Shown piece after piece: positions 37,574-55,442 of a stretch of DNA of 59,267 bases. The notes beneath the pieces are model-generated. The model had not been told where the DNA came from and searched no databases. It was given only the letters and a program-made list of their open reading frames with translations. This DNA is from Hyphomicrobiales bacterium (GTDB lineage: Bacteria > Pseudomonadota > Alphaproteobacteria > Rhizobiales > Beijerinckiaceae): assembly GCA_019246665.1 (NCBI GenBank), contig JAFAQA010000524.1:1-59267 (forward strand). Reading direction: 5' to 3'. The first letter of the stretch is position 1. Every line of letters begins with the position of its first letter. A program made the translations under genes and the position numbers.

Positions 37574-37600
37574 TTCGTCCTCCCCGTAGGTCGCGTTTCC

Positions 37601-38491: not shown

Positions 38492-39600
38492 GCGGGCTTC
38501 TCGCGCGCCAGCTCGAGAACGTGAGCGCAGATGCTGTCCAACGATCCGCCGTCGCCCAATTCGTCGAGGAAGGGCCAGACCGCAGCGAGGCCGGCCGTGC
38601 GGGGCTCGAAATTTTTATCGCCGGCGAGCGGTGTCAGCCAGACGGTGCGCCAAGCGATGCGGGATAGATGCGCCACCGCCTCACGCATCGCGCTTGGATC
38701 ACCTCGCTCGAGCCCGTCCGAAAGCACGACCAGCGCTGCTCCGCGCGCCAGCGCAGCGAAGCGAGGAATGCCCAGAAATGCGCCGAGCGCCTCGCCGATA
38801 CGGGTGCCGCCGTCCCAGTCGGCCACAAGATTAGAGGCGCTGGCGAGGGCCCGTTGGCGATTGCGCTGGCGCAGCGCCCGGGTGACGCGCGTAAGCCTCG
38901 TGCCGATCGTGAATACCTCCGCTGAGTCAGCGGCGCGCGCAAGCGCGTGCGCAAAGGCAAGGTGCGTGTGGGTGCGCTCCTTCATCGAGCCCGAAATATC
39001 GACGAGCAGCACGATGCGGCGCTGGCGCATCCGGCGCTTGCGGCGCCGCAGCCGCACGAATTCGCCGGCGGTTCGCATGGCATCGCGAAACATCCGCCGC
39101 GCGTCGGCGCCTGGTCCCCGAGGCGCGCCGCGCCAGCGGTAGCCGCGTCGTCGGGGCGCATGGGCCGGCAGTGCGCGGCTGAAACGGCGCAATATTTCGA
39201 GTTCGCCGCCAGGGCTGAAGCGCCGCGCGGCGAGTCTTTCGGCGCCAGTGGGCTTTTCCCCGGACTCATGGGTCTCGTTCCCGAAGATCGGCTCGGGGCC
39301 GCCGGAGGAATCATCGGCCGCACGGATCGATACGTCCTCGCTCGGTGCCGATTCCACCGCAATCCCGAGCGTTCCAAGAAAATGACCGTCGAACAGAGCG
39401 TCGAATTCGTTGAGGCGCTCAGGCGGGGGAGCCAAAGTTGCACGGGCAGCGCGTCGGAGGTCGCCGATCTCCGTAGGTCCGAGAAGTTCGATCCCGGCGA
39501 GCCAAGCCATGCTTTGCTCTGGCGCGACGAAAAATCCCGCCCGCCGCAGCAACGAGGGAAAGCCGAGGAGGTGCACCAGGGGCACGCTTGTGTCCATCAT
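38488..39600 (-). CDS. VWA domain protein, CoxE-like
   Basis: MIDAS DISGSM, GTRLTRVT, DWDGGTRIG and LSDGLERG; ATGA overlap with the MoxR stop. Confidence 0.9.
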   Translation of the reverse strand: MMDTSVPLVHLLGFPSLLRRAGFFVAPEQSMAWLAGIELLGPTEIGDLRRAARATLAPPPERLNEFDALFDGHFLGTLGIAVESAPSEDVSIRAADDSSGGPEPIFGNETHESGEKPTGAERLAARRFSPGGELEILRRFSRALPAHAPRRRGYRWRGAPRGPGADARRMFRDAMRTAGEFVRLRRRKRRMRQRRIVLLVDISGSMKERTHTHLAFAHALARAADSAEVFTIGTRLTRVTRALRQRNRQRALASASNLVADWDGGTRIGEALGAFLGIPRFAALARGAALVVLSDGLERGDPSAMREAVAHLSRIAWRTVWLTPLAGDKNFEPRTAGLAAVWPFLDELGDGGSLDSICAHVLELAREKPA

Positions 39601-40484
39601 GCTCCAGCCTCGACGAGAATGGAGTCGAGCTTCGGAGCCACCTGCACGAGGTCGTCCTCGTCCTTGAGAACGACACCGAGCGAGCGACGGAAAGCCTCCG
39701 GCCAACGTGCTCCTTGCTCATTGAGAAGCGTTGCGGCCTCGGCCCATTCCACCGCTTCCGCGATGCCGGGATGCTTGGCTAGCGGCTCGCGCCGCAATCG
39801 TCCCACCGCCGCGACAACGGCGCGCGCCGCTTTCTCCGCAACGCCTGATGCCCGCATCATGATGATCCGCATTTCGCGTTCGGGTGCCGGATATTCGATC
39901 CAGTGATAGACGCAGCGGCGTCGCAAGGCTTCGTGCAGCTCGCGAGTGCGATTTGACGTGAGGATCACGACCGGGCGCTCGTAGGCACGAATGGCGCCGC
40001 GCTCGGGGATCGAAATCTGAAAATCTGAGAGAAACTCGAGAAGAAAAGCCTCGAACTCGTGATCCGAACGGTCGATCTCGTCGATGAGGAGGACGGTCTC
40101 TTCCGGATGCCTCAGGCAGGCGAGCATTGGCCGCTCGATCAGGAACTCGTCGCGATAGATATCGACGGAGGCGCCCTCGGCACTCTCTTGGCGCAGCGCC
40201 AGCATCTGGCGGGGAAAGTTCCACTCGTAAAGCGCCGCCGCCGCGTCGATCCCCTCGTAGCACTGCAGGCGCAGGAGTCTGCGGCCAAGCACGCCCGCAA
40301 TCGCTTTGGCGGCTTCCGTCTTGCCGACGCCGGGCGCGCCTTCGAGGAGCAATGGTTTTCCGAGCGCGAGCGCGAGATATGCGGCAGTCGAGAGCTCTTC
40401 GTCCGAGAGATAATAGGCAGCGCGCAAGGCCTGCTCGAGATCGTGCGGGCTGCCAATGCCGACAATGGTACGTCGTACCGCCAC
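39597..40484 (-). CDS. MoxR AAA+ ATPase, CoxD-like
   Basis: GAPGVGKT, RLQCYEG, LLIDEID and TSNRTRELHEALRRRC motifs. Confidence 0.92.
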   Translation of the reverse strand: MAVRRTIVGIGSPHDLEQALRAAYYLSDEELSTAAYLALALGKPLLLEGAPGVGKTEAAKAIAGVLGRRLLRLQCYEGIDAAAALYEWNFPRQMLALRQESAEGASVDIYRDEFLIERPMLACLRHPEETVLLIDEIDRSDHEFEAFLLEFLSDFQISIPERGAIRAYERPVVILTSNRTRELHEALRRRCVYHWIEYPAPEREMRIIMMRASGVAEKAARAVVAAVGRLRREPLAKHPGIAEAVEWAEAATLLNEQGARWPEAFRRSLGVVLKDEDDLVQVAPKLDSILVEAGA

Positions 40485-40489
40485 GATCG

Positions 40490-41515
40490 CTACCGCACGC
40501 GCGGGGGCGCTTCGGGTCGACCCCGGACTTTCAACGCCCTCAGGACCTTCTCTGGCGTGATCGGCAGCTCATCGATGCGCACGCCGACGGCGTCATAGAT
40601 CGCGTTGGCGATCGCCGGAAGCGAAGGATTGGCGCACATCTCGCCCGGACCTTTGGCTCCGAACGGCCCGTCGGGCGCTGGTCGTTCGAGCACGACGATG
40701 TCGTGGGGGCAAATATCGCCGGGACCTGGCATCAGATATTCGTTAAAATCACGCGGCCCCTCGCGTGTGTCCGGATAATAGGGTTCTGGCGTCTCGAAGA
40801 GCGCGTGGCTCATGCCCATCCACGAGCCGCCAACCAGCTGTTGCTCGACCAGCTTTGGGTTGATCGCGCGCCCCAGTTCATAGGCGCTGGTCATCTTGAG
40901 CACGGTAACCTCGCCCGTCTCATCGTCGACTTCAAGGTCGACGATCTGGCAGGCGTGGGCGTAGCAGGTTGCCGGCGACATCTCGCCGGTTTCCGGATTG
41001 ACGTCCGAGAGCGGCACCAGGAAAATGCCGCGTCCGGAGATCGTCTTCCCTTGCCGGAATTGTGCCGCGATAGCGACATCTCGAACTGAAATCGCACGAT
41101 GCGGTGCGCCCTTCACGTGGATCGAGCCGCGTCCATCGGTTTCGAGATCACCGGGGTCGACTTCGAGCTCCTCGGCGGCCGCTTCCATCATCACCGCTCG
41201 CGCCTCGCGAGCCGCGGCCATGACCGCATTGCCGACCCGATGCGTGCCGCGAGAAGCGAAAGAGCCCATGCAATGGGGCCCCGTGTCGGAATCGGCAGTG
41301 TCCACGTAGACATCCTCGACCGGAATGCCGAGTGTCTCCGCGCAAATCTGCCGCGTCACCGATTTCATCCCCTGTCCAAGATCGATCGAAGAAAGCGCGA
41401 CCGTGAATTTTCCGGTCGGGTTGGAGTGGACCAGCGCTTGGCTCGGATCGCCGCCGAGATTCATGCCGATCGGGTAATTGATGGTCGCGACGCCGCGCCC
41501 GCGATGCCTGGCCAT
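40490..41515 (-). CDS. Molybdenum hydroxylase Mo-binding subunit, C-terminal half (NdhM-like)
   Basis: RGRGVA start, DLGQG, GSFASR, INP..VEQQ..GG and GPFGAKGPGE (catalytic Glu). Confidence 0.9.
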   Translation of the reverse strand: MARHRGRGVATINYPIGMNLGGDPSQALVHSNPTGKFTVALSSIDLGQGMKSVTRQICAETLGIPVEDVYVDTADSDTGPHCMGSFASRGTHRVGNAVMAAAREARAVMMEAAAEELEVDPGDLETDGRGSIHVKGAPHRAISVRDVAIAAQFRQGKTISGRGIFLVPLSDVNPETGEMSPATCYAHACQIVDLEVDDETGEVTVLKMTSAYELGRAINPKLVEQQLVGGSWMGMSHALFETPEPYYPDTREGPRDFNEYLMPGPGDICPHDIVVLERPAPDGPFGAKGPGEMCANPSLPAIANAIYDAVGVRIDELPITPEKVLRALKVRGRPEAPPRVR

Positions 41516-41517
41516 TC

Positions 41518-43104
41518 TCAACGTCTCCTGGTGCCAAAAACGGATGAAAATCGTCGCACGCCGTGCGTCGACCCGGCGGGTGGCGTTGCCGGAGGTGTCG
41601 ATTGGATCGGCGGCGGAGAGGTGGAACCGGCAGGCCGCTCATAGGTGACGCGCTGCGGGGCACTAGTCCCCGTTCGGACGGGCGCGGCAGGGGTGGACAT
41701 ACGCGTGCGATCGGCGACCCCGGCGCGCTCCGCACCGCCGTCTTTCTTCGACGACATCTTGCGGAATTCGTCGCGGAGCGGCCAATTGGCCTTTTCCGCC
41801 GCGACCTGCGCGCATTCTATGAGCGCGCAATTCTTGGCCTCGCGCCGATGGGCTTTCATATCCCCGTCGCGGTAGGCGTTGAGGAGGCGGAACTCCAATG
41901 GATCCATGCCGATCGCGACGGCGTCCTTGTCCATTTGGCATTCAAGCGCGAAGTCGAGCGCGGTAACGCCAAAGCCGCGCATTGCCGTGGCCGGTGTCCG
42001 GTTGGTGAAGACGCAGAAGACATCCGCATGCACATTGGGGATGGTGTAGGGCCCGGGAATATGGGCCACGCATTTCACGACCGCGTAGCTCGAAAGGCGC
42101 GTGTAGGCACCCGCGTCGAAATAGGCCCGTACCTGTCGCGCGACGATCCGCCCATCGCGCATGACACCATCCTTGACGTAGATGCGCTCGGCGCCCCGCG
42201 GCGAGCCGAACTGCATCTCTTCGTGCCGGCTCAGCCGATAACGCACGGGCGCGCCGGTGAGGCGGGCGGCCAAGATGGCAAGCGGCTCGGTGAGCGTATC
42301 CACCTTGCCGCCAAACCCGCCGCCCACGGTGCCGCCAATGAAATGCAGCTGGTTCGACGGCATTGCGTTGATCTTGGCGGAGGTGTCGAGCGAGAAGAAC
42401 AGTGCCTGCGTGGACGTGTAGACGGTGAAGCGGCCATTGGTGTCCGGCACCGCGATCGAGCCGTTGGTCTCGGTTGGTGCGTGCTCGATCGGCGACATCT
42501 GGTAGCGTTCTTCAGAAACGAAGTCCGCCTGCGCGAACGCCTGCTCGACCGCCCCGAAGCGCAGTTTCTGGTGGTCGTATTTGCCGTGGTATTCGAAAGT
42601 GTTCTTCGGATATACCGGGTTGACGGACACTGCGCCCGGCTTCAGCGCCTCCTCGACATCGAACACCGCCGGCAGTGGATCGTAGGAGATGCGCACAAGC
42701 TCCAACGCCTCGCGCGCCGCGCGTTCGCTGGTCGCGACGACGCCGAGAATGGGTTCGCCCTTGTAGCGCACGACGTCCGTCGCAAGCGACGGCTCGTCAT
42801 CCTTGCCGAATTGAATGAGGCTCAGCAGCGTGTTTAGGTTGACCGGCACGTCGGCGGCGCGAATGATGCGCTTGACGCCCGGCGCGCGCGAGGCTGCGGC
42901 GTCGTCGATCGAGCGAATCCGCGCATGCGCGTGCGGGCTCCGCAGGATTTTCAGGTGGAGCAGATTGGCGAAGCGATGATCGTCGTAGTAAGCCGAAGTT
43001 CCGGTGACATGTCCGAGCATGTCCTGGCGCTGTGTAGGCTGTCCGACTTCTTTCAGATTATCGGCGCGTTCGTCAGCAAATATATCCTTGCGCATCTCGA
43101 GCAT
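41518..43104 (-). CDS. Molybdenum hydroxylase Mo-binding subunit, N-terminal half (NdhL-like), with Pro-rich C-terminal tail
   Basis: VTG...Y.DD, RSPHAHA.I, GGGFGGK, GPY.IPN and AMRGFG, followed by a ~80-aa low-complexity tail. Confidence 0.9.
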   Translation of the reverse strand: MLEMRKDIFADERADNLKEVGQPTQRQDMLGHVTGTSAYYDDHRFANLLHLKILRSPHAHARIRSIDDAAASRAPGVKRIIRAADVPVNLNTLLSLIQFGKDDEPSLATDVVRYKGEPILGVVATSERAAREALELVRISYDPLPAVFDVEEALKPGAVSVNPVYPKNTFEYHGKYDHQKLRFGAVEQAFAQADFVSEERYQMSPIEHAPTETNGSIAVPDTNGRFTVYTSTQALFFSLDTSAKINAMPSNQLHFIGGTVGGGFGGKVDTLTEPLAILAARLTGAPVRYRLSRHEEMQFGSPRGAERIYVKDGVMRDGRIVARQVRAYFDAGAYTRLSSYAVVKCVAHIPGPYTIPNVHADVFCVFTNRTPATAMRGFGVTALDFALECQMDKDAVAIGMDPLEFRLLNAYRDGDMKAHRREAKNCALIECAQVAAEKANWPLRDEFRKMSSKKDGGAERAGVADRTRMSTPAAPVRTGTSAPQRVTYERPAGSTSPPPIQSTPPATPPAGSTHGVRRFSSVFGTRRR

Positions 43105-43115
43105 GACAATTCCCT

Positions 43116-43592
43116 TCAACTACGCCGAGGGGCAGCGCGGGCCGCATCGAGGACCGCGGCGATGATCGGCTCATAGCCGGTGCAGCGGCAAATGTTTCCG
43201 CAAATCGCATCGACGACGTTCTCACGTGTCGGGTTTGGCTCCCGATCAAGGAGGGCTTTCGCCGCCATCAGCATGCCCGGCGTGCAATAGCCGCACTGGG
43301 CCGCGAAGCGTTCCATGAAGGCGGTCTGCAGAGGGTGCAATTTTGCACCTTGGCGAAGCCCGGCAACTGTCTCGATGGACTTGCCTTCGCAACTTTCGGC
43401 GAGGGTCACGCAGGAAAGTCGCGGCATGCCGTCGACCAGAACCGTGCAGGTACCGCAGGTGCCCTGCCAACAACCGCCTTTGACCGAAAGGTCACCGATT
43501 CCCTCCCGCAGCACATCGAGCAGGTTGGAGCCGCTATCGGCGAAGGTGGCGACCTCTTCGTCATTCAGGCGGAACTGGATCGAAGTCTTCAT
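43116..43592 (-). CDS. Molybdenum hydroxylase 2x[2Fe-2S] subunit
   Basis: GCWQGTCGTCTV, QCGYCTPG and GNICRCTGY. Start reassigned to MKTSIQF. Confidence 0.93.
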   Translation of the reverse strand: MKTSIQFRLNDEEVATFADSGSNLLDVLREGIGDLSVKGGCWQGTCGTCTVLVDGMPRLSCVTLAESCEGKSIETVAGLRQGAKLHPLQTAFMERFAAQCGYCTPGMLMAAKALLDREPNPTRENVVDAICGNICRCTGYEPIIAAVLDAARAAPRRS

Positions 43593-43599
43593 CGGCGGC

Positions 43600-44418
43600 T
43601 CACGAGCGCCCCGCGCCGAGGAGCAGCCGGCGCAAATGGATGGGAAGAATCTCGCGCCGCCACCAGGCGCTGGCGATGGCGTCGTCAAGTGGGGATGTGC
43701 CGTCGGCCGCGACGGCGAGAGCGGGTGCGATGGCGTTGTCTTCGAGCGGACGCCCTTCGAGAGCGCGCTCAGCCGCTTTGGCGCGCAGGGGCATCCGGCC
43801 CATGGCCCCGTACGCAATGCGCGGGCCCGCAATTCGACCGTTCGCGAGGGGCAATTGCGCGGCGATCGCAAGAACCGACAAGCCCTTGGGATGCACACGG
43901 GTGACCTTCGTAAACCGGAACACCTCATTCGCGGGCCGTTTGAAAGCAATGCTCGATACGAGCGAAGCTCCGCGTTCGCGTCGCCCAAGGAACTCTTCGA
44001 GCGACAACTCGCGCTGACCGTAGCCACCGGCGAGCGTCACTGTCGCGTCGAGCGCAAGCAGGGCCGAGGCGAAATCGCCATAGGGGCTCGGTGCGAACAA
44101 GTTGCCCCCGATAGTAGCCGCTTCGCGTACTGCCGGCCCGCCGACAGCTCGTGCCACCGGGTGCAGAAACGCGAGTTCGCGCTCGCCAAGAATAGCGGCC
44201 ATCGTCACGCCGGCACCAAGCTCGACGCGACCCGAAGTCACCGCGATGCCGACGAAGCTCGGATCCGTCGAGCGGACGAGCGTTTCAATCGAAGGCTCAG
44301 CTTCGTTGACAGCGCGCATGACGAGCGTGCCACCCGCGAGAAAGCGCGCGCCGCGTTCGGTCGAGAGGGCGCTGGCAGCCTCGGCCAAACGGGCGAAGGT
44401 CTTCACAGCGATGGTCAC
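43600..44418 (-). CDS. Molybdenum hydroxylase FAD-binding subunit (CoxM/NdhF-like)
   Basis: LAGGT, VGGPAVR.AATIGGN and ALLALDA motifs. Confidence 0.9.
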   Translation of the reverse strand: MTIAVKTFARLAEAASALSTERGARFLAGGTLVMRAVNEAEPSIETLVRSTDPSFVGIAVTSGRVELGAGVTMAAILGERELAFLHPVARAVGGPAVREAATIGGNLFAPSPYGDFASALLALDATVTLAGGYGQRELSLEEFLGRRERGASLVSSIAFKRPANEVFRFTKVTRVHPKGLSVLAIAAQLPLANGRIAGPRIAYGAMGRMPLRAKAAERALEGRPLEDNAIAPALAVAADGTSPLDDAIASAWWRREILPIHLRRLLLGAGRS

Positions 44419-44873
44419 GGGCGGCCCTCCCCGGCCATCCCTGCGAAGTGGGCGCGGACGGCCGCGAATCCCGCGTCGTAGATGTCAATCCCGATCATCC
44501 GCGTCATTTCCTCTTCCTCACCCATGCGCGTTGAAAATGAGCAGCGCCATTCCCAGAAGGTCCGGTCTCCGTCGGTGACCGGAGCGAGGCGCACATGCGC
44601 CACGTAATTGAACAAGGGAACCGGCGTGTCTAACAGGCAGTAGGAGAAGCTCTGCTCGAGATCGGAGAGGCTCAGCAGCCGTTCGCGCAGCTCCGATCCG
44701 TCGCGCAGGAAGAAGCGTCGAATGCAGCCAAGCTTGTCTGCGCTTTGCCCGCGCTCGATCGCGCTCTTGGCGACGGCGGGATGCCATCGGTCATGGCCAT
44801 TGAAATCTCGCAAGAAGAGCCAGACGCGATCGGTCGGGGCCTCGATAATCGTCGAGCGCACGAGACGGATCAT
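44415..44873 (-). CDS. SRPBCC (START/polyketide cyclase-like) protein
   Basis: S.II.AP...VW..LRDFN....WHP, GC.R.F.L.DG...RE.LL.LSD; paralog of the adjacent gene. Confidence 0.88.
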   Translation of the reverse strand: MIRLVRSTIIEAPTDRVWLFLRDFNGHDRWHPAVAKSAIERGQSADKLGCIRRFFLRDGSELRERLLSLSDLEQSFSYCLLDTPVPLFNYVAHVRLAPVTDGDRTFWEWRCSFSTRMGEEEEMTRMIGIDIYDAGFAAVRAHFAGMAGEGRP

Positions 44874-44877
44874 AGCC

Positions 44878-45315
44878 TCAGCCTCCAAACTGGCGCTTGA
44901 GAGCATCGAAGCCCCCCTGGAACACACCCCCGCCGATCGACGACATCAAATCGGCCTCGCGCTCCGGCGGGCAGTCGAACTCCGCCGTCCACTCGACAAA
45001 GGTGCGGTCGCCGTCGGTGATCGGGGTGAGGCGAAGCGTGGCCACGTAGTTCTCGACGCCCATTGGCGATTCCAGGATCGAATACGTACAGAACAAATCG
45101 AAATCGGAGAGTCCGAGGAGCCTCTCCCGGATGCGATCGCCATTGCGCAGGCGAAAATCGCGCACGCATCCGACCTTGTCCGCAGGTTCGCCATTCTCGA
45201 TGCGGCTCTCCGCGATCCCAGGATGCCACAAGGGAAGCGCATTGAAATCGCGAACTCGCGCCCAAACGCGGTCGGAACGGCTGTTGATGACGCTCGAGAC
45301 GTAGACGCGGGGCAT
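44878..45315 (-). CDS. SRPBCC (START/polyketide cyclase-like) protein
   Basis: VW..VRDFN.LP.WHP, GCVRDF.L..G..IRE.LL.LSD and TFVEWTAEF motifs. Confidence 0.88.
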   Translation of the reverse strand: MPRVYVSSVINSRSDRVWARVRDFNALPLWHPGIAESRIENGEPADKVGCVRDFRLRNGDRIRERLLGLSDFDLFCTYSILESPMGVENYVATLRLTPITDGDRTFVEWTAEFDCPPEREADLMSSIGGGVFQGGFDALKRQFGG

Positions 45316-45348: not shown

Positions 45349-48201
45349 TTATCCGCGCGACGACCCCCCGCCTGCGGGTGGCTTCTTCGGCTTGGTCTCC
45401 TTGCCGATGGCTTGCATGTCGCGCGCTTCCCGAATGAGGCCCGGCAATCGCGAGAGGCTTCCGCCCTCGATGCCGATTTCGGCGAGGATCTGATCGATCA
45501 TCGGGGCCTGGACGCGATATCGTAGCGCCGAATCGATCACCTCGTCGGTGGCGCTGCGGCCTCGCGAGCCGCCCGATCCACTCCCACCATTGAGGCCGTC
45601 TACGTGCAGGATGCGGATGCCCTCGATTTTCTCCATCGGCTTGACGCTTTCGCGCACGATGCCCTCGATACGTTCGAGCAGCCTGCGGCGGAAAAGCGAC
45701 GCACGCGATGCATCCGAGAGCACGTTTTCCGCCTCATTGAGAAGCCGCTGGGCTTCGGCTTCGGTTTCCGCGCGCACCTTTTCAGCCGCCGCCGCGATCC
45801 GCACTTCGTCGGCCTCTTTTTCGGCGATGAGCACTTCGACCGTGCGACGACGACGCGCCGCCTCGCTTTCGCGGACCGTCTTGACCCGCTCCTCGGCCTC
45901 GACCGCCTCAGCGCGTGCCGCCTCGGCTTCGGTCTGTGCCGTCGATTGTTCGAGCGATTTTCGGTGAATTTGCACCGCGCTTTCCATCCTCGCCGTTTCG
46001 ACCGCAGTCTCGCGACCGATTTCGAGCTGGCGCAGTTCCCGCTCACGAATGATCCGCGCCTCATCGAGGCCCCGTTCCGAGGCGATGCGCGCCCGCTCGA
46101 CCTCCTCGCGCGATGCGATCTCCGCTTCCTGGAAAGCTTGCATGCGGCCGATCTCGGACTGTTCCACCGCGCGCCGGCGCTCCAAGCGCGCGAGATCGAG
46201 AGTTTGCTCACGCACGACGTCGGCGCGCTCGATGCGCTGGGTCGCCAGGATGTTGGCTTCCTTCACCCGCCGATCGGCGTCCGCTCGTTCGGTCAGCTTA
46301 GCTGCGACCTCGATCGAGCGATCCTGATCGGCGATCTCCAAGATCTTGCGGCGATCGATGTCGAGCGTCTCGCGGGTCCTTGACGATGCGATCCGCTCGC
46401 GCTCGAGGGTAAGCTCGCTGGTGATGCGTGCAGCTTCGACGACCTCGCGTCGCTTGATCTCGGCATCTTCGATTGCCCCCTCGCGCGCGATTTCGCGACT
46501 GCGCGTCTCCTGCTCGGAGCTGATACGCTCGAAGGCGATCTTTTTCTCCTGGCTTATGCGGGAAGCCTCGACCGCTTCGCGCGCCGCGATTTCCGCCTCA
46601 TCGAGCGAGCGTGTCCGGGCAATTTCGAGGGCTCGGACATGTTCCTCTTGCTGGATGCGTGCCGCCGCGGTGACCTCGCGTGCCGCGATGTCGGTTTCTT
46701 CGAGTGTCTTGGTGCGTTCGATCTCGAGGGTCCTTATGGCGACCTCCGACGCGATACGCTCGGCGGAAAGAGCTTTCTCTCTCGCGATGCGTGCCGCTTC
46801 CGTGGCCCTCGCGGCGGTGATCTCTTCCTCGTCGACCACGCGGTTGCGGGTGATCTCGCGCCGGCGGATCTCTTCCTCGAGTGCGATGCGCTCGTCGGTG
46901 ACGACCCGTTCCTGGGCGATGCGGGCGCGCTCGGTGATCTCACGGGCCGCGATTTCGGCCTGCTCGAGATTGCGCGTGCGTTCAATCTCCAGGCGGCGGT
47001 TCTCCTCATCCTTGGCGATGCGTGCCGCGGTGACCGTGAGCTCTTGAGCGATGCGCGCCTTTTCAGTCTCCTCCCGCGCTACGATTTCGGCCTGCTCGAC
47101 GTTTCGCGTGCGTTCGATTTCGCGCCGCTGGTCCTCCTCATCGCGCGCGATGCGAGCCTCGGTGACCACCCCCTCCTGGACAATGCGGGCGCGCTCGACG
47201 CGTTCGCGCGCGGCAATCTCGGCTTCGTCGATCAGGCGTCCACGCTCGATCTCGCGCTCGCGGATGTCGCGCTCGGAAGCGATGCGCGCTTCGGAAAGCG
47301 CGCGCTCATGGGCGATGCGCGTCTTCTCCACTTCCTCGCGGGCGGAGATCTGTGCCTGCTCGGCTTCGGTGTCGCGCAGCGAGCGCTCTCGGGCGAGCTC
47401 GGCGCGCTGCACCGCGCGCCTGACCTCGATGTCGCGTTCCTGGTTAAGGCGGGCGGTCTCACTCTCGCGATCGATTTCGAGCGCCTGCTTCTCCGCTTCG
47501 AGGTTGCGGCTGCGGATCAGGATCATCGAATCCTGCTCGATGTCGTTGCGCAGCTTGCGGCGCGCTTCGATGTCCTCGATGAGTTTTGTCAAACCTTCGG
47601 CATCGAACCGATTGGATGGATTGAAGAATTCGAGATCCGTCTGATCAAGATCGGTGATCGCCACCGATTCGAGTTCGAGGCCATTCTGCTGCAGGCCCTC
47701 CAGCGCCGCGTCCTTGACGCGAGACACATACTCGCCGCGCCGCTCGTGCATCTCGACCATGGTCATTTCGGAGGCGACTGATCGCAAGGCGGAAACAAAC
47801 TTGCCGGACAGCAAGGCATCGAGCTCTACGACGTTGGTGGTGCGCCGGCCAAGTGTCGCCGCCGCGATGGTCACCGCCTCGCGCGTGGGCGGGACCCGAA
47901 CGTAGAACTCCGAATCGATGTCAACGCGCATGCGGTCCTTGGTGATCAGTGCGTCTCCCTGGTTACGAACGACCCGCATGCGCAAGACGTTCATGTTGAC
48001 CGGAGTGACTTCGTGAATGAACGGAAGAACGAAGGCTCCGCTGTTGATCACCACCCTTTCGCCAAAGAGCCCCGTGCGCACGAAGGAAAGCTCCTTCGAT
48101 GAACGGTGATAAAGCCAATTGACGAGGTAGACGAGAATGGCGATGACGACGACGGCGACAATGAGCCAGATGATTAGGTTACCGAGAATGGCAACAGACA
48201 T
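45349..48201 (-). CDS. Very long flotillin/SPFH-family protein (~950 aa, YqiK-like)
   Basis: N-terminal TM helix, SPFH domain (FVRTG, LITKDRMRVD...FYVRV, NGLELESV, FFNPSN.FDAEGLT), a long E/R/A/I coiled coil, and a flotillin C-terminus (ESVKPMEKIEGIRI, SALRYRVQAP). RBS GGAGG before the ATG at 48201. Confidence 0.9.
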   Translation of the reverse strand: MSVAILGNLIIWLIVAVVVIAILVYLVNWLYHRSSKELSFVRTGLFGERVVINSGAFVLPFIHEVTPVNMNVLRMRVVRNQGDALITKDRMRVDIDSEFYVRVPPTREAVTIAAATLGRRTTNVVELDALLSGKFVSALRSVASEMTMVEMHERRGEYVSRVKDAALEGLQQNGLELESVAITDLDQTDLEFFNPSNRFDAEGLTKLIEDIEARRKLRNDIEQDSMILIRSRNLEAEKQALEIDRESETARLNQERDIEVRRAVQRAELARERSLRDTEAEQAQISAREEVEKTRIAHERALSEARIASERDIREREIERGRLIDEAEIAARERVERARIVQEGVVTEARIARDEEDQRREIERTRNVEQAEIVAREETEKARIAQELTVTAARIAKDEENRRLEIERTRNLEQAEIAAREITERARIAQERVVTDERIALEEEIRRREITRNRVVDEEEITAARATEAARIAREKALSAERIASEVAIRTLEIERTKTLEETDIAAREVTAAARIQQEEHVRALEIARTRSLDEAEIAAREAVEASRISQEKKIAFERISSEQETRSREIAREGAIEDAEIKRREVVEAARITSELTLERERIASSRTRETLDIDRRKILEIADQDRSIEVAAKLTERADADRRVKEANILATQRIERADVVREQTLDLARLERRRAVEQSEIGRMQAFQEAEIASREEVERARIASERGLDEARIIRERELRQLEIGRETAVETARMESAVQIHRKSLEQSTAQTEAEAARAEAVEAEERVKTVRESEAARRRRTVEVLIAEKEADEVRIAAAAEKVRAETEAEAQRLLNEAENVLSDASRASLFRRRLLERIEGIVRESVKPMEKIEGIRILHVDGLNGGSGSGGSRGRSATDEVIDSALRYRVQAPMIDQILAEIGIEGGSLSRLPGLIREARDMQAIGKETKPKKPPAGGGSSRG
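46363..47253 (-). repeat. Intragenic tandem repeat: six 44-aa and one 33-aa units with 11-residue periodicity
   Basis: Units start EIERGR, EIERTR, EIERTR, EITRNR, EIERTK (33 aa), EIARTR and EIAREG; Ile recurs every 11 residues (EI..EI..RI..RI). Confidence 0.85.
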
Positions 48202-48202: not shown

Positions 48203-49093
48203 TTACGTCCTCCCTCTCGCTGACCGCTGGTAGAGTGCGCGGCTAACCTTTGTTTTACTATCAGATTTCTTGATTGCCTTGAATTTTGCAACTTGGTCGG
48301 CAAGAGCGCGCTCGACCGGCAGGCGCTCCATCGACGAGGCTCCGAAGAACCCGTCGCAACGACGAGACTGAGCGAGCACATAGGCGGCGTCGGCTGGCTC
48401 GGCGACCGGTCCGCCATGCACGAGCACGAAGATGTCGTGCTTCACCGCGAGCGCCGCCTCGGCCATGGTGTCGGTGAGGGCTGGACAATCCTCCAGTCGC
48501 GTCGCGGTCGCTGCGCCAATCGAGCCGCCGACCGTGAGCCCGAAATGGCACACGAGGATGTCCGCGCCGGCCTTGGCCATGGCCGCTGCCTCCCAGGGTT
48601 CGAAGACATAGGCAGCTGTCAGAAGGTCGCGCTCACGCGCCTTGGCAATCATGTCGACCTCGCGGTCATAGCCCATGCCGGTTTCCTCGAGCCCCGCGCG
48701 AAAGCGACCGTCGATGAGCCCGACCGTGGGAAAGTTCTGCACGCCGCTGAAACCCAGCCGCTTGAGTTCGAGCAGCAGATCATCCATCTGGCGGAACGGA
48801 TCGGTCCCGCATACTCCGGCGAGCACCGGCGTGCGAGCGACGACGGGGAGCACCTCGCGAGCCATATCCAGGACGACGGCGTTTGCGTCGCCATACGGCA
48901 TCATGCCGGCGAGGGACCCCCGGCCAGCCATGCGGTAGCGCCCTGAATTGTAGATGACGATGAGATCGGCGCCACCCTTCTCCTCGCTCTTGGCGGAGAT
49001 GCCGGTGCCCGCACCGGCACCGATGATGGGTTCACCCCGCTCTTTCATGGCGCGGAAACGCGCGAGAATGTCCGAGCGCGTGACACGGGGCAC
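48203..49093 (-). CDS. TIM-barrel signal transduction / PEP-hydrolase-like protein (Tm-1 C-terminal domain homolog)
   Basis: [49 protein letters not shown] and [10 protein letters not shown] motifs. Confidence 0.88.
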
Positions 49094-49096: not shown

Positions 49097-51313
49097 CTAC
49101 CTCCTTGCGTGACGCCGGGTGCGGCGCCCACCGACCAACCGGCGGAATTCGGAGACGATTTCCGTCGAGAATTGCGGATCATTGATATGCGCGCGCAACC
49201 GGATGAGCCGGCGCGCGGCGGATTGCCGAACGGTGGCTTCGAGAGTTCGGAAAAGCTCTTCGTCGGCATTCGGATCTGCAAACGGCCCGCGCGGACCGTC
49301 CAGCGCCGAGAGCCCACCCTCGGGCAGGAAGAAACGGACCGGCCCCTCCATCAGATTGAGGCGCTCGCCGATCCATCGGCCGATCCGCACGTTCTCGTCC
49401 GCGGTCGTTCGCATGAGCGTCACCGTCGGGTTATGCACGTGGAACCTGCGGCCACGGTAACGCTCAGGGACGCTGTCGATCGGCCCGAAGTTCACCATGT
49501 CGAGCGCGCCGCACGAGCCGATGTAGGGAACTCTCGTGCGCGCGATGGCTCCGAACCGATCCTCGGTGGCGGGCAACACGCCACCGAAGAGAAGATCGCA
49601 GACTTCCGTCGTGGTGATATCAATCACGCCCATAAGCGCGCCGGCATCGACGAGCTTTTCCATCGATTGTCCGCCGACGCCGGTGGCGTGGAAAACGAGG
49701 CACTCGAAATCGTCATCGAGCGCGTGTGCGATGGCGTCGACGCAAGGGGTCGTGACCCCGAACATGGTGAGGCCGATCCCCGGTTTGCCGCCGCCGCGCG
49801 CCTGCAGTCGATCGCGTTCCGTCGTGCTTGCGGCGCGCGCCTTCACCATACCGACAATGGCCGCGGCCCCATTGGCGAGAACCTGGCGTGTGATCGAATT
49901 CAGTCCCGCAACGTCGGCCACGGAGTAAAGCATCATGATATCCGAGGGCCCGACATACGGAGCGACGTTGCCGGAAGCGACGGACGAGACGAGCACCTTG
50001 GGCACGCCGATCGGCAAGGCCCGCATGGCCGGCGCAACCAACGAACTTGCGCCAGATCCTCCCGCGGAAATCAGGCCGCCGATCGGCGCCTGCCGCCTGA
50101 TCCATGTTTCGAAGGCTTCGGCCATGGCGGTGATCGCGGCGCCGCGGTCCCCCGAGAAAACCGAATTTGGCCCGCCACGGTAATATGTCGCGACGTGATG
50201 GGGCGGCACATCGGCCGGCGATGGCCCGCCCGAGGTGGACAGATCAACCAGCGTCACGCGCACGCCTGCGGCGGCGATCTGATCGCGAATAAAACGAAGC
50301 TCCTCGCCTTTGGTGTCCAGCGTCCCAGCGACGATCACCGGGGCCACACCGCCGCGGTGGACTGGCCGCAGGTCGACCGCCGGGGCCGTGGGCTCGGCCG
50401 TCGCCTCGGGCACCACCGTGCGCGTGCGCGCGGCCGTCTCGATCTGTAGAATGGAAGCTGGCAGTGACCAGCGCGTCGGCGTCGCCGGGTTGGAAATAAA
50501 CACGCGGACGGGGCCGCGTGGCTTCCGCGGGCGGGCAGCGTTGCCGGGAGAAGGCTTTTCGGCAGGCTCCTCGGTCGTCCCTTCCTCGCCGTGCTGGCCC
50601 ACGCCAAGCAATCTTTGTTGAAGTTCACGATCGGCTTCGAGGCGCGCCGCGTCCATGACGCGATTGATCCGACCATTGATCATGATCGCGACTTTTTCCG
50701 CTATCGCGGTCGCGACCCCGATGTTTTGCTCAACCACCAGAATGCCGATGTCGCTTTGCTCGCCCAGTGTGACCAGGATCTGTTCGACCTGGTCCACGAT
50801 GACGGGTGCCAAGCCCTCGGTCGGCTCGTCCATCACCAAGAGGAGCGGGTTGAGAAGCAGGGCGCGTGCAATGGCCAGCATTTGTTGCTCGCCACCGGAG
50901 AGCTGATTTCCCCGATTGTTGCGTCGTTCCGCCAGCCTCGGGAACGTGTCGTAGATGCGCGAAATCGTCCACTGTGATCGGCTTGCCCCGCTCGCGAGCT
51001 GCAGGTGCTCGGCGACGGTGAGTGAAGGCCACAGCCGGCGGCCCTGCGGCACATAGCCGACCCCCAGTCGTGCGATCTCGGCAGGGCTACGACCGATGAG
51101 ATCTTCGCCCATGAAACGGATGGAGCCGCTCGCGGCAGGGATCAGCCCAAGGATTGCCTTGCACAGCGTCGTCTTGCCCATGCCGTTTCGTCCCACCAGG
51201 GAAAGCACGCCGCGCTCGAGTTTCAGATCGACGCCCTGAAGCGCATGGCTGCGTCCATAGGAGACGTTCAACCCTTTGATCTCGAGCAAATGGGACGAGC
51301 GAGGCTCAGCCAT
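49097..51313 (-). CDS. LivF-type ABC ATPase fused to a UPF0261/Tm-1-like ATP-binding domain
   Basis: N-part has GRNGMGKT, VPQGR, LSGGEQQM and DEPTEGL. After an ~85-aa linker, the C-part has GTLDTKGEE, GGSG, LPIGVPK..VS, TMFGVTT, FHATG.GG, GALDMVNFG and HINDP.F. Confidence 0.9.
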   Translation of the reverse strand: MAEPRSSHLLEIKGLNVSYGRSHALQGVDLKLERGVLSLVGRNGMGKTTLCKAILGLIPAASGSIRFMGEDLIGRSPAEIARLGVGYVPQGRRLWPSLTVAEHLQLASGASRSQWTISRIYDTFPRLAERRNNRGNQLSGGEQQMLAIARALLLNPLLLVMDEPTEGLAPVIVDQVEQILVTLGEQSDIGILVVEQNIGVATAIAEKVAIMINGRINRVMDAARLEADRELQQRLLGVGQHGEEGTTEEPAEKPSPGNAARPRKPRGPVRVFISNPATPTRWSLPASILQIETAARTRTVVPEATAEPTAPAVDLRPVHRGGVAPVIVAGTLDTKGEELRFIRDQIAAAGVRVTLVDLSTSGGPSPADVPPHHVATYYRGGPNSVFSGDRGAAITAMAEAFETWIRRQAPIGGLISAGGSGASSLVAPAMRALPIGVPKVLVSSVASGNVAPYVGPSDIMMLYSVADVAGLNSITRQVLANGAAAIVGMVKARAASTTERDRLQARGGGKPGIGLTMFGVTTPCVDAIAHALDDDFECLVFHATGVGGQSMEKLVDAGALMGVIDITTTEVCDLLFGGVLPATEDRFGAIARTRVPYIGSCGALDMVNFGPIDSVPERYRGRRFHVHNPTVTLMRTTADENVRIGRWIGERLNLMEGPVRFFLPEGGLSALDGPRGPFADPNADEELFRTLEATVRQSAARRLIRLRAHINDPQFSTEIVSEFRRLVGGRRTRRHARR

Positions 51314-52088
51314 GCCCTCCTCCCAAATACAATTGCTGCACCTGGGGGTCTGCTTCGATTTCGCGCGGCGTTCCTTCCTTGAAGATCCGTCCGTTGTGCA
51401 TCATCGTCACGCTCTCAACCACCCGCAGCGCAACGTCCATGTCATGCTCAATGATGATGTAGCCGATATGGGCGGGAAGCGCGGTGAGGATCGCGATGAG
51501 ATCGCCTCGCTCGTTCGGCGAAAGCCCCGCTGCCGGTTCGTCGAACAGGATGAAGCGCGGTGCGCCTGCGAGTGCCAGAGCGATCTCGAGCTGACGTTGC
51601 TGGCCGTGCGCCAGCTCGCCGACCGGACGATCGGTGACGGATTCGAGATGCACCAGCGCAATGAGGCTGGTGACCGATTGCATGATGGCGTCGCGGGCGT
51701 GCCTGCGGGCAAACGAGAAACGGCCGCGCGAAACGCCTAGGCAGGCGAGATAGACGTTGTCTCGGACCGAGAGGCCCTGGAACAACAGCGAGATTTGGTA
51801 AGTGCGGCGCAGGCCTCGGCGAATGCGTTCGTGGGGCGGCAGATTAGTCACATCCTCGCCGTAGAAGCGCACGCTACCCGAGGTTGGGGGAAAATCGCCG
51901 GTCACGCAATTGAGCAAGGTGGTTTTGCCCGCGCCGTTGGACCCGAGCACGGCGCGTCGCTCGCCGGGTCGAACGCTGAGCGTGATGTCGGACAAGGCTG
52001 CGAGACCGCCGAAACGCCGGCTTACGCCGCGCAATTCGATCGCATTGCCGGTGCCGGCGACAGCAATCCGTTCGGCGATCGTGCTCAA
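51306..52088 (-). CDS. LivG-type ABC ATPase
   Basis: GSNGAGKT, L.HGQQRQLEI, DEPAAGLS and IEHDM. TTG start overlaps the upstream stop. Confidence 0.92.
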   Translation of the reverse strand: MSTIAERIAVAGTGNAIELRGVSRRFGGLAALSDITLSVRPGERRAVLGSNGAGKTTLLNCVTGDFPPTSGSVRFYGEDVTNLPPHERIRRGLRRTYQISLLFQGLSVRDNVYLACLGVSRGRFSFARRHARDAIMQSVTSLIALVHLESVTDRPVGELAHGQQRQLEIALALAGAPRFILFDEPAAGLSPNERGDLIAILTALPAHIGYIIIEHDMDVALRVVESVTMMHNGRIFKEGTPREIEADPQVQQLYLGGGHG

Positions 52089-53143
52089 CGCGGGCTCTTC
52101 CCGGTCTGGGAGCGAGCGCGCGCCGACCACCGCCGCCAAAGGCCTATCATCCCATCGGGCGAGAAGAGCACGATGACAAGAAATCCCAGTCCGATGATCG
52201 TCTGGAAGCGGCGTCCATCGAGTCCGACGGCGACAAGCGAGTCGAGGGCGAAGGTCCGCAATATTACGTAGATCAACGCACCGATGAAGGCACCGATTGG
52301 GTGTCCGAGGCCCCCGACCACCGCAATCACGAGAAGGTCGATCGTCGCCTCGATGCCGGCGGTGCCTGGAGAGATCTGGTTGTTGAGCCACACCAAAAGG
52401 ATGCCGCCAATCGCCGCGATGAGGGCCGCGAAAGCGTAGGCGGCGATGCGGTGAGCGGTGACATTGAAGCCGATCGCCTCCATGCGACGGGGATTATCGC
52501 GGGTGCCTTGGAGAGCGAGGCCGAACGGCGCGCGGGAGATGTAGAGAACAGTAACGTAGCTGAGACCGGCAAAAAATAGGATCAGATAATAGAGGGCGAC
52601 GGGAGATTTCCAGTTGATACCAAGGAAAATCGGTGCCGGTATCGTCGTAAAGCCGTTGAAGCCGTTGAAGATCGACCAGTTCTGGAGTGTCAGGTAGAAG
52701 AAAGCGCTCGCAAGTGCGAGGGTGATCATGATCGTATAGATGCCTTCGGTGCGCGCGGAGAGGGCGCCGGCTAGCGTTCCGAAAGCGACGGCAATGATGA
52801 TCGCAACAGGGGCAGCCACCCACCACGGCCAGAACAGGCTAATCGAGGGAAGTGAACTCGCGCCGAAAACGGTGATCATGTATCCGGCAAGGCCCGCGAC
52901 CGTCATCTGCACCAGGCTCACCATGCCGCCGTAGCCGGCGAGAAACATCAACGACAGCGCGATCATGCCGAGGATCAAGGTCCAGCCGACGATCTGGTCG
53001 AGCACGAAATTGCTCGCGACCGCCGGCAGCAGCACCAGGACAAGCCCGAGCAGCAGAATGGCAAAATGATCGGCGATCCAGCGCGGCGGCGCCGCGCTGT
53101 CGACGCCGCCGATCCTAGTCTCCCTGGTGTGCGAGATCGCCAC
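52085..53143 (-). CDS. LivM-type branched-chain ABC permease
   Basis: GYGGMVSL, Y.IMITLA, PFG.AL...RDN..R...G and VVGG.G...GA motifs. Confidence 0.92.
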   Translation of the reverse strand: MAISHTRETRIGGVDSAAPPRWIADHFAILLLGLVLVLLPAVASNFVLDQIVGWTLILGMIALSLMFLAGYGGMVSLVQMTVAGLAGYMITVFGASSLPSISLFWPWWVAAPVAIIIAVAFGTLAGALSARTEGIYTIMITLALASAFFYLTLQNWSIFNGFNGFTTIPAPIFLGINWKSPVALYYLILFFAGLSYVTVLYISRAPFGLALQGTRDNPRRMEAIGFNVTAHRIAAYAFAALIAAIGGILLVWLNNQISPGTAGIEATIDLLVIAVVGGLGHPIGAFIGALIYVILRTFALDSLVAVGLDGRRFQTIIGLGFLVIVLFSPDGMIGLWRRWSARARSQTGKSPR

Positions 53144-54211
53144 TCAACGCCGTCCCAGAAGCCCTTGCGGGCGCAAGGCGAGAACAACCACCATGATCAC
53201 GAATGTCGCGACCGTTGCATAATTTTGGAAGTAAACCAGGCCAAACTGCTCCGAGAGGCCGATGATGAGAGCGCCGAGCGCGGCACCCGGAATCGATCCC
53301 ATTCCCCCAACGATCACCACGACGAGCGATGCCAACAGGAAATGCGAGTCTTCGCCGAGGGAGATCGATTGGAATGTCCCGCCCACGATGCCTGCCATTC
53401 CGGCCAATCCGGCGCCGAACGCGAAGACGAGGATGAACAAGAGTTGCACCCGGTATCCGAGCACCGAGAGCATGTCGCGATCATCGACCCCGGCGCGGAT
53501 CATCATGCCGATCCGCGTACGGTGCAGGGCAAGCCACATCCCGACGCCGATCAGGACGGCGGCGATAAAAATCACGAGCCTGACGCGGGGGTATTGAAGA
53601 AAAACCGCGTCACCGCTCGATTTGATGGCGACAATGATGGGGGTTGGCACGGGACCCATCAAATAATCCGGCGTATCGATCTGGATGGCGTTGCCGCCCC
53701 AGACCCACACCATCAGATCGGAGAAGACGATCGAGAGCCCAAGCGTGACAAGCGTCTGGCGGAGATCCTGCCCCTGCATTCGACGGAAGATCAGGACCTG
53801 CATGGCGGCGCCGACCAAGGCACAACAGGCAAACGCGAAAACATAACTGAGGAGCCACGAACCGGTCCACACACCCGCCTCGTAACCCATATAACCACCA
53901 AACAAGTAGAGCGAGCCGTGCGCGAGGTTGACGTTGCGCATCAGGCCAAAGATCAACGTGAATCCGGCGGCAACGAGAAAGTAGAGCCCGCCGAGCGTAA
54001 TGCCATTGAAAAGTGCGTTGATGAATAGACGCTTCCTGCCGAAAACGTTCTCGAACTCTTCCGGCCATGGCGCGAACACCAGCCAGAGCACGAAAATAAC
54101 AGCAATGGCGATCGTCAGCGCCGCGACGGGACGACGGCTTATCCAGCGCGCGAACCTGTCACCGCGCTGCGCGGTTTGTGGTGCAACTTCGTGGCCAAGA
54201 GCCGTGGTCAA
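53144..54211 (-). CDS. LivH-type branched-chain ABC permease
   Basis: NGITLGGLY..A.GFTLIFG...VNLAHG, VIVGGMGS and RPQGL.G motifs. Confidence 0.92.
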   Translation of the reverse strand: MTTALGHEVAPQTAQRGDRFARWISRRPVAALTIAIAVIFVLWLVFAPWPEEFENVFGRKRLFINALFNGITLGGLYFLVAAGFTLIFGLMRNVNLAHGSLYLFGGYMGYEAGVWTGSWLLSYVFAFACCALVGAAMQVLIFRRMQGQDLRQTLVTLGLSIVFSDLMVWVWGGNAIQIDTPDYLMGPVPTPIIVAIKSSGDAVFLQYPRVRLVIFIAAVLIGVGMWLALHRTRIGMMIRAGVDDRDMLSVLGYRVQLLFILVFAFGAGLAGMAGIVGGTFQSISLGEDSHFLLASLVVVIVGGMGSIPGAALGALIIGLSEQFGLVYFQNYATVATFVIMVVVLALRPQGLLGRR

Positions 54212-54294: not shown

Positions 54295-55122
54295 CTATTC
54301 GACCACGACCCGGGCTATAGTCCGATAAAGATTGGGTGCCACGCCGACATGGGCTGAGAAGAAATGGGTGAAATGGCTCTGAGATGAGAAGCCGAGCTCA
54401 AAACCGATATCGCTTACTGAGATTTGGGGGTCCATCAGGCGCTCAAGGGCCCGCTCGATCCGCATGGTATTGGCGTAGAGTGCGGGTGTCACCCCGGTGT
54501 TTTCGCGAAACAACTTGAAGAAATGCGGCCGGGACAGGCCGACATGTCGCGCGATGGCATCGAGCTCGAGGCCTTGTGAACAGCCGTCCTGCAGCAAGTG
54601 CAACGACTTACGAACGCGAAAGTCGATGGAGGTTCTGCAGGCCGAAAGGGTTGCCGGTCGACGATCCTTGCTCCAGGAAGCATCAAAGCTCGCATCGAAG
54701 AGCTGGTTCAAGTAGCGCTCGACGATCCGACAGCTCGCGTGAGTTACAAGCACGTGGGCAAGGCTCACGGCAATCGAGCGGATCGTTGTTCCTACCTCGA
54801 TCGTGTTGGCACCAAAACGTAGGCTGCCGCGACCGTGTTGATCTCGGTCAAGCCATCGCTCGCAGAGATAGGCCACCAGAAAGACCGAACCTTGATTTCC
54901 AGGGCTTGGGCAAAAAGAATGCGGCTGCCAAGGATTGATGGCTACCCCTCTCGTCTCGTTGACGACGTGGGGAACATCACAAATGGTGACCACTGCCGGA
55001 GGGCCACTCAACAGGTAAGTCAGATGCCCTTCACGATGCGCATGCGTGCGCATGGGCCGATCGAGCTTATAAACGGTCACTCGCCCGAATGCGCCATGGC
55101 AGACTGACAGAGCATTGCTCAT
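54295..55122 (-). CDS. AraC-family transcriptional regulator with cupin N-domain
   Basis: HAHRE cupin motif; double HTH GLSRPHFFKLF...GVTP and LGFSSQSHFT.FF. Confidence 0.92.
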   Translation of the reverse strand: MSNALSVCHGAFGRVTVYKLDRPMRTHAHREGHLTYLLSGPPAVVTICDVPHVVNETRGVAINPWQPHSFCPSPGNQGSVFLVAYLCERWLDRDQHGRGSLRFGANTIEVGTTIRSIAVSLAHVLVTHASCRIVERYLNQLFDASFDASWSKDRRPATLSACRTSIDFRVRKSLHLLQDGCSQGLELDAIARHVGLSRPHFFKLFRENTGVTPALYANTMRIERALERLMDPQISVSDIGFELGFSSQSHFTHFFSAHVGVAPNLYRTIARVVVE

Positions 55123-55442
55123 CGATCGCCTCCCACACAGGTTTTCTTGTTTTGTGGATTAAGCGCCGACCTGTTCCGGGTGACAAGTGGGTGTGCGGTT
55201 GAACTTGAGAATTGGGCAAGATCGGACCCCAAGACAGGCAGGCGCAGCCCGTGTACTTGGGTTGCGACTACACAAATCCGGCGCGCAAATTCTAAGATTC
55301 CACAGTAATGGACTTGTGGCGGACGCCCGCCAACTGTTACGATTTCGTTGCTGGTCGATAGGACGGTGAGTTATTCCCCCCGCAACAACTAAGCTTCAGC
55401 AGCCGGTGCCGTTTCACGGTGCACCAACAGGAGGAAACCTCA

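What the first reader, a model, noticed from the sequence alone, without database searches (positions are those of the whole stretch)
45349..48201. Giant flotillin extended by 44-aa hendecad (4x11) repeats: a possible length-tunable SPFH cage
Seen: ~950 aa, with residues 317-613 forming six 44-aa units and one 33-aa unit, so unit length varies by exactly 11 and Ile recurs every 11 residues. No NfeD/YqiJ-like partner gene is adjacent. Known: typical bacterial flotillins (FloT, YqiK) are roughly 500-550 aa and usually sit beside an NfeD-type gene; hendecad periodicity gives nearly straight helical bundles; SPFH relatives (HflK/C, flotillin, major vault protein) form barrels or domes. Inference: 297 repeat residues at ~0.15 nm each would add ~45 nm of wall, giving a vault-scale chamber large enough for the co-encoded enzymes.
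Basis: partly seen in the sequence, partly recalled or inferred. Interest (0 to 1): 0.8.

Follow-up and report, generated by a model that had tools for sequence, protein, structure and literature searches.

The report
Giant flotillin built in 11-residue steps
This gene encodes an extra-long bacterial membrane-scaffold protein (flotillin) whose predicted helical wall differs between species almost only in steps of 11 amino acids and which sits inside a conserved nutrient-import gene cluster, so it likely builds a tall membrane-anchored tube serving that importer; giant flotillins were noted in 2009, and enclosure of the neighbouring enzymes is untested.

Summary
Observation confirmed. The gene (minus strand) encodes a 950-aa flotillin. 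Residues 317-613 form six 44-aa units and one 33-aa unit, with Ile at 30 of 30 positions spaced 11 apart. It is not a misassembly. Among 186 relatives, 46 of 49 distinct core lengths fall in two classes modulo 11; E. coli YqiK obeys the same rule, so the stepping is family-wide. The predicted 3.67 Fourier peak is not significant. Instead the helix has two apolar seams, which fits a side-by-side barrel wall rather than a small bundle. The gene lies in a fixed operon (63 of 63 full-length close loci): LIV-type importer, LivF-UPF0261 fusion, TIM barrel, two SRPBCC proteins and a split Mo-hydroxylase. All 52 Mo-linked copies in the sampled genomes are giant, but this traces to one origin, and length varies 530-937 with unchanged cargo, so tuning is unsupported. 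A 2009 survey already lists 'giant SPFH2b without NfeD' in Bradyrhizobium. This scan also reported the family on other DNA. Best reading: a tall membrane-anchored cage or tube scaffolding the importer (0.55). Enclosure of the enzymes: about 0.2.

The parts
45349..48201 (-). Giant YqiK-type flotillin gene, 950 aa
48209..48213 (-). GGAGG ribosome-binding site, 7 nt before the ATG and overlapping the end of the TIM-barrel gene
   Evidence: sequence
48103..48198 (-). Predicted N-terminal membrane helix (residues 2-33), followed by basic residues, so likely cytoplasm-facing
   Evidence: topology inferred from sequence
47638..48078 (-). SPFH/Band_7 domain (residues 42-188)
   Evidence: 60.6 bits, cut-off 23.6
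45727..47595 (-). Predicted wall helix, residues 203-825 (623 aa, no proline)
46363..47253 (-). Repeat block, residues 317-613: six 44-aa units and one 33-aa unit; unit DNA 49-70% alike
46357..47316 (-). Ile ladder, 30 of 30 positions from residue 296 to 615 in steps of 11
45469..45825 (-). Flot domain (residues 793-911): end of wall, cap helix, last helix
   Evidence: 126 bits, cut-off 27
48203..49093 (-). PEP_hydrolase-like TIM barrel (PF09370)
49097..51313 (-). LivF-type ABC ATPase fused to UPF0261 (Tm-1/MarK-like, putative kinase)
51306..54211 (-). LIV-type importer: LivG ATPase and two permeases
54295..55122 (-). AraC-family regulator
55419..56705 (+). Periplasmic binding protein (Peripla_BP_6), divergent
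44415..45315 (-). Two SRPBCC (Polyketide_cyc2) proteins
40490..44418 (-). Molybdenum hydroxylase with split large subunit: FAD, 2Fe-2S and two molybdopterin subunits; best solved match E. barkeri nicotinate dehydrogenase 3HRD
38488..40484 (-). CoxD-like AAA ATPase and CoxE-like vWA protein
35110..38491 (-). Amidohydrolase, metallo-beta-lactamase-fold protein and SGL-isochorismatase fusion, the end of the gene train

Best explanation
The protein is a YqiK-type flotillin whose predicted single wall helix has been lengthened in whole 11-residue units, and it likely assembles into a tall membrane-anchored ring (cage or tube) in the cytoplasm that likely corrals the co-encoded importer and its fused kinase-like domain. 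Shown: the domains, the 11-residue register, the length steps, the two-seam pattern and the operon. Inferred: each helix packs against a neighbour on either side through an Ile seam and a Val/Ile/Thr/Leu seam, with an Ala-rich face and a charged face left over, probably inside and outside. Any indel that is not a multiple of 11 would rotate the seams out of register and be purged, which explains the steps. Repeat number most likely drifts by slippage or unequal recombination of 132-bp units under that filter, rather than being tuned to cargo. Predicted wall height is 76-93 nm for 623 residues, against 22 nm for the human cage.
For: Ile at 30 of 30 steps; over 2292 hendecads from 68 relatives one position is 97% Ile, another is 77% large apolar, and the seams lie 148-180 degrees apart by weighting. 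46 of 49 distinct core lengths in two classes mod 11; random draws reached at most 22 in 20,000; mod 7 shows nothing. Best profile and fold matches are human flotillin 9BQ2/9L3G, a 44-helix side-by-side right-handed barrel (PMC11260169). Importer, LivF-UPF0261, flotillin and SRPBCC pair are kept in 63 of 63 loci of 18.5 kb or more and also beside short flotillins, so the importer module is the older partner. The Bradyrhizobium counterpart bll3380 is transcribed and drops 4.7-fold with five neighbours (4.6-6.4-fold) in a phaR mutant (PMC6201568 supplement).
Against: No bacterial YqiK-type structure was found in the PDB copy, so the ring is inferred from homologues with 14-22% identity. The monomer model is low in global confidence (pTM 0.29) and breaks at about 420-480 and 622-637. 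Ring size is not fixed by the seam angle. Strict hendecads fit about 21-23 helices unstrained at 3.63 residues per turn; 44 would need slight strain. No physical contact with the importer was tested. Flotillins of the same type also sit beside YqiJ or rhodopsin genes, so neighbours need not be clients.
Confidence: 0.55

Rival explanations
1. The ring is a closed metabolic chamber: importer and kinase at the base, the Mo-hydroxylase and hydrolases inside, and the wall grew to hold them.
For: In the sampled genomes all 52 flotillins followed by the Mo-hydroxylase genes have cores of 530-937, while 22 of 23 operon flotillins without them have 285-566. Three short-frame matches beside the Mo genes proved to be cut by contig ends or frame-broken. 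The human cage wall is described as without holes (PMC11260169).
Against: The link is one gain and one loss on the tree; only 2 independent pairs, sign test p = 1. Length varies 1.8-fold with unchanged cargo. Related Mo-enzyme modules (large subunit 53-61% identical) occur away from any flotillin gene, and 5 of the 86 genomes with the subunit had no Flot match at E <= 1e-15 (searches compared). Flotillin mRNA is only 1.2-2.4 times that of the five neighbours seen, low for a many-subunit shell around a few enzymes, though mRNA is not protein. Lumen width is unknown.
Confidence: 0.2
2. The repeats form a narrow stalk (small bundle, fold-back hairpin or double layer using the Ala-rich face) or a filament, not a tall wide cage.
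For: The Ala-rich face could pack on a second helix layer. Strict hendecads suit small radii without strain. The monomer model has low-confidence breaks where a fold-back could lie.
Against: No single hydrophobic core: period 3.667 is not significant, and every canonical a/d/e/h assignment puts charged positions in the core. No proline and only 7 glycines in 623 residues. The SPFH and cap ends resemble ring-forming relatives.
Confidence: 0.15
3. The flotillin is a general membrane organiser that merely travels with the operon, with no specific client in it.
For: YqiK-type flotillins occur in several other contexts. TIM-barrel and UPF0261 genes occur without a flotillin nearby in 5 of 5 such loci fetched.
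Against: Fixed position, 1-nt and 33-nt gaps to its neighbours, 63 of 63 synteny, one operon clade across many families and co-regulation in Bradyrhizobium.
Confidence: 0.1

Closest known systems
Giant SPFH2b flotillins without NfeD (Hinderhofer et al. 2009, PMC2636767; e.g. B. japonicum NP_770020)
   Same: 800-1000 aa, expanded predicted coiled-coil region, no NfeD; five such entries in the supplement. Bradyrhizobium relatives have the same core length (662) and nearly the same unit order.
   Different: In the passages and supplement rows I saw, there is no 11-residue register, no length steps, no operon and no structural model; 'repeats' and 'xanthine' have 0 hits in the main text.
E. coli YqiK (b3051)
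   Same: Same anchor motifs and the same modulo-11 rule (core 274, class 10); single N-terminal membrane helix.
   Different: 553 aa against 950; paired with yqiJ, whereas this clade has no YqiJ and sits in an importer operon.
Human flotillin-1/2 cage (PDB 9BQ2, 9L3G; PMC11260169)
   Same: SPFH domain, long wall helix, cap helix; top profile and fold matches.
   Different: Wall 186 aa against about 623; lipid-anchored heteromer against a predicted membrane-helix homomer; wall described as held by charge pairs, here two apolar seams in strict 11-residue register.
Flotillins of FArhodopsin clusters (PMC10308929)
   Same: Longer-than-usual flotillin (1,977 bp) tied to one gene cluster; rhodopsin-linked flotillins form part of the sister branch in my tree.
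   Different: Partner is a rhodopsin, not an importer with kinase and Mo-enzyme; cores 252-380.
Major vault protein
   Same: Weak fold matches (rank 29 and below); long helical barrel.
   Different: No vault Pfam family in this protein; it has a predicted membrane helix.

Membership tests
Bacterial flotillin (SPFH2, YqiK type) | N-terminal SPFH/Band_7 domain | tested here: met
   PF01145 60.6 bits, cut-off 23.6; profile hits human flotillin-1 at E 1e-7
Bacterial flotillin (SPFH2, YqiK type) | C-terminal Flot domain | tested here: met
   PF15975 126 bits, cut-off 27
Bacterial flotillin (SPFH2, YqiK type) | N-terminal membrane anchor and long helical region | tested here: met
   Predicted helix 2-33 (hydrophobic) and helices across 203-825; prediction only
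Bacterial flotillin (SPFH2, YqiK type) | Cap helix, beta-strand, last helix at the narrow end | tested here: inconclusive
   Helix-helix-linker-helix predicted, no strand in the monomer; fold search gave only generic helices
Bacterial flotillin (SPFH2, YqiK type) | NfeD/YqiJ gene in the operon (usual, with known exceptions) | tested here: not met
   the 2009 survey lists the giant members as lacking it
Bacterial flotillin (SPFH2, YqiK type) | Ring-shaped high-order oligomer on the membrane | not testable with these tools
   needs purified protein or tomography
Giant SPFH2b without NfeD (PMC2636767) | About 800-1000 aa through an expanded helical region | tested here: met
   950 aa; expansion lies between the conserved anchors
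Giant SPFH2b without NfeD (PMC2636767) | Orthology to the listed members (NP_770020) | tested here: inconclusive
   Other Bradyrhizobium genomes give 66-69% identical relatives in the same operon; bll3375, bll3379 and bll3382 match the window's genes in length and order. The NP_770020 sequence itself was not compared, and its equation with bll3380 rests on recalled numbering.
Canonical hendecad coiled coil | 11-residue sequence period | tested here: met
Canonical hendecad coiled coil | One continuous hydrophobic core (period 3.67) | tested here: not met
   Power 46 against a shuffle 95th percentile of 95; two seams 148-180 degrees apart
Major vault protein | N-terminal vault repeats; soluble cage | tested here: not met
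   Only Flot and Band_7 at E <= 0.001; predicted membrane helix
Enzyme-enclosing compartment | Cargo enzymes physically inside the shell | not testable with these tools
   only genomic association was examined

The most novel reading that the evidence does not exclude
A bacterial flotillin forms a membrane-capped tube 75-95 nm tall (110-135 nm in the longest relatives), built in whole 11-residue courses, that seals an importer with its fused kinase at the base and a molybdenum hydroxylase inside: a membrane-anchored metabolic compartment made from an SPFH protein.
Probability: 0.2. Interest if true: 0.85.

Novelty: new variant of a known kind. Interest (0 to 1): 0.5.

Why it matters
What bacterial flotillins do and whom they serve is an open question. 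This clade names candidate clients in its own operon, is expressed and co-regulated in a tractable model (B. diazoefficiens bll3369-bll3386), and offers a natural ladder of 49 wall lengths from 252 to 937 residues. That ladder allows a direct test of whether SPFH cage height follows helix length and whether the 11-residue register is needed for assembly. If the rings form, they would have walls about three times longer than the human flotillin cage.

Tried and rejected
Complex prediction of four copies of residues 317-560 gave no verdict (score 0.00, controls not run); it is not used for or against. The fold search with the C-terminal model returned only generic helices, Z up to 7.1. phmmer of the single protein found no solved relative, and NCBIfam had no family at E <= 1e-8. 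No RNA holder was listed among sequencing runs. The promoter and terminator scan was at chance level, and Rfam had no match. Misassembly rejected: unit DNA is only 49-70% alike; one contig of run X3 covers 46384-47533 with one mismatch and no in-repeat skip was listed, though no piece spans the whole gene; an 89% identical relative has the same unit order, and complete Bradyrhizobium genomes have the same core length. Heptad register rejected. Length tuned to cargo rejected as unsupported. Literature searches: flotillin + hendecad gave 0 papers; flotillin, xanthine dehydrogenase, SRPBCC and Tm-1, 3 of 4 terms, gave 0; none of the 25 papers listed for hendecad or SPFH held both terms. I recall a 2023 survey of hendecad families that this library does not appear to hold (one search listed only four papers with the terms); it may cover these proteins. 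The vault's dimensions were not found in the passages read.

Full report
Observation. The interval 45349-48201 is one 950-aa ORF on the minus strand, with a GGAGG site 7 nt upstream. Pfam gives Band_7 at 42-188 and Flot at 793-911. Ile recurs at 30 of 30 positions from 296 to 615 in steps of 11. Autocorrelation peaks at lag 44 (0.49 against 0.13 +/- 0.02 in shuffles) and at every multiple of 11; heptad lags are near background. No NfeD or YqiJ gene is adjacent. The genome's two NfeD matches lie beside other SPFH genes, and YqiJ_N was not found in this 92.7%-complete genome.

Not an artefact. Unit DNA is only 49-70% alike. One public contig covers nearly the whole repeat block with one mismatch, although no piece spans the gene. 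An 89% identical relative has the same unit order, and complete Bradyrhizobium genomes have the same core length of 662.

The 11-residue rule. I measured the distance between two conserved anchors flanking the helical region. Of 121 proteins from the homologue search (best 120 of 6088, plus the query), 107 had both anchors and 104 of these fell in classes 2 or 10 modulo 11. Of 195 genome loci examined, 186 gave an intact ORF and 182 of these fell in the same two classes. The nine dropped were three lacking one anchor in the stretch held and six with 1-2 extra bases but otherwise in class 2. Counting distinct lengths only, 46 of 49 (range 252-937) are in the two classes; random draws reached at most 22 in 20,000, and modulo 7 shows nothing. 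E. coli YqiK (274) and ordinary yqiJ-linked flotillins (274-310) obey it too. The stepping is therefore a property of the YqiK type, and this clade simply has many more steps. The two classes differ by 3 modulo 11, so a second, rarer indel exists.

What the pattern implies. It is not significant (46, against 95 for the shuffle 95th percentile); the peaks are 5.5, 2.75 and 2.2. Over 2292 hendecads from 68 relatives, one position is 97% Ile and another 77% large apolar; an Ala-rich arc lies on one side and a charged arc on the other. The two seams are 148-180 degrees apart depending on weighting. I infer side-by-side packing in a wall, as in the human flotillin cage, which is a 44-helix right-handed barrel with a 186-residue wall, 22 nm tall and 32 nm wide at the base (PMC11260169, passages and section 7). 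That structure is the best profile and fold match. The monomer model predicts helix across 203-825 with two low-confidence breaks and pTM 0.29. My geometric estimate shows that strict hendecads are nearly straight only in small bundles. A wide ring must tilt by up to about 35 degrees, so the 297 repeat residues would add 36-44 nm and the whole wall would be 76-93 nm. Ring size, and thus lumen width, is not determined.

Genomic context. The gene is inside a tightly packed train: AraC, LIV-type importer, LivF fused to UPF0261, TIM barrel, flotillin, two SRPBCC proteins, a four-subunit Mo-hydroxylase, CoxD/CoxE-like proteins and three hydrolase-fold genes. UPF0261 has one characterised member, the aromatic kinase MarK (PMC12624787, passages). 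The large Mo subunit's best solved match is nicotinate dehydrogenase 3HRD; the substrate is unknown. All 63 of the 80 fetched loci that are 18.5 kb or longer keep importer, fusion, SRPBCC pair and Mo genes, and 61 keep the TIM barrel; these were the 80 best of at least 740 matches, so they are close relatives. In B. diazoefficiens, bll3369-bll3386 match by order and gene length. bll3380 has RPKM 212 against 90-179 for the five neighbours I looked up, and all six fall 4.6-6.4-fold in a phaR mutant (PMC6201568, passages and six supplement rows). Parts of the cluster rise in a nasT mutant (PMC6759348, passages).

Does length follow cargo? From evenly drawn samples of 300 class-level and 400 order-level genomes I fetched 115 flotillin regions; for the order sample I chose 80 matches with long open frames and left most short ones unfetched. 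Of 114 with anchors, 52 are followed by the Mo genes and all have cores of 530-937. 23 are in the importer operon without Mo genes, and 22 of them have 285-566. The other 39 lie outside the operon (252-582). Three short-frame matches beside Mo genes were truncated or frame-broken. On trees built from the non-repeat parts, however, the Mo-linked giants are one clade with one later loss of linkage (63 rows in the second tree, 34 Mo-linked rows left out). There are only 2 independent pairs (p = 1). Within the clade, length varies 1.8-fold with unchanged genes. Related Mo modules occur without a flotillin gene nearby in the 15 loci fetched. The importer module, present beside normal-length flotillins at the base of the clade, is the older partner.

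Mechanism. Most likely the protein forms a tall, membrane-anchored, cytoplasm-facing ring that corrals the importer and its fused kinase-like domain (0.55). Repeat number likely drifts by duplication or loss of 132-bp and 33-bp units, with selection removing out-of-register changes. Rivals are an enzyme-enclosing chamber (0.2), a narrow stalk or filament (0.15) and a passenger with no specific client (0.1). Assembly, lumen size and clients are all untested.

Novelty. Hinderhofer et al. 2009 describe giant SPFH2b proteins of 800-1000 aa and list five entries as lacking NfeD, among them B. japonicum NP_770020 (PMC2636767, passages and supplement rows). Size and missing partner are thus known. 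I found no paper on the 11-residue register, the length ladder or the operon, but the library lacks most subscription papers and bioRxiv supplements. This scan has reported the same family on other genomes; those notes were used as leads only. Verdict: a real feature and a new variant of a known kind, interest 0.5.

Noticed in passing
window 49097-51313 (-): LivF-type ABC ATPase fused to a UPF0261 (MarK/Tm-1-like) domain, kept in 63 of 63 full-length loci; suggests substrate modification at the transporter.
   Followed up: partly
P0008 and P0016: Database proteins joining the flotillin to an SRPBCC or a TIM-barrel domain; both have out-of-frame-looking stretches at the junctions, so they may be sequencing errors rather than true fusions.
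   Followed up: partly
L010 and L022: Two operon copies with different core lengths (871 and 926) carry the same assembly title; paralogues or bin mixing.
   Followed up: no
L192, L197, L174, L169, L171-L182: Separate expansions (cores 373-582) in flotillins outside the operon, also in register; wall lengthening happened more than once.
   Followed up: partly
L260, L261, L262: Other, more distant flotillins also lie beside LIV-type ABC genes of a different kind.
   Followed up: no
L135:5046-5747, L136:8075-8764, L161:2665-3375: Rhodopsin genes directly upstream of flotillins of the sister branch, as in FArhodopsin clusters.
   Followed up: partly
window flotillin against family f1: Only 1 of 14 sampled genomes of the window's family has the Mo subunit, and its flotillin (L211) groups apart from the window's; the operon may move horizontally.
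   Followed up: no
window 41518-43104 (-): The first large Mo subunit ends in a Pro/Thr/Ser-rich tail with a short basic terminus; the more distant unlinked relatives stop about 60 residues earlier.
   Followed up: no
window 13483-34288: Further catabolic and transport clusters: IclR regulator, two ABC importers, oxidoreductases, enoyl-CoA hydratase, AMP-binding enzyme, aldolase and two amidohydrolases.
   Followed up: no
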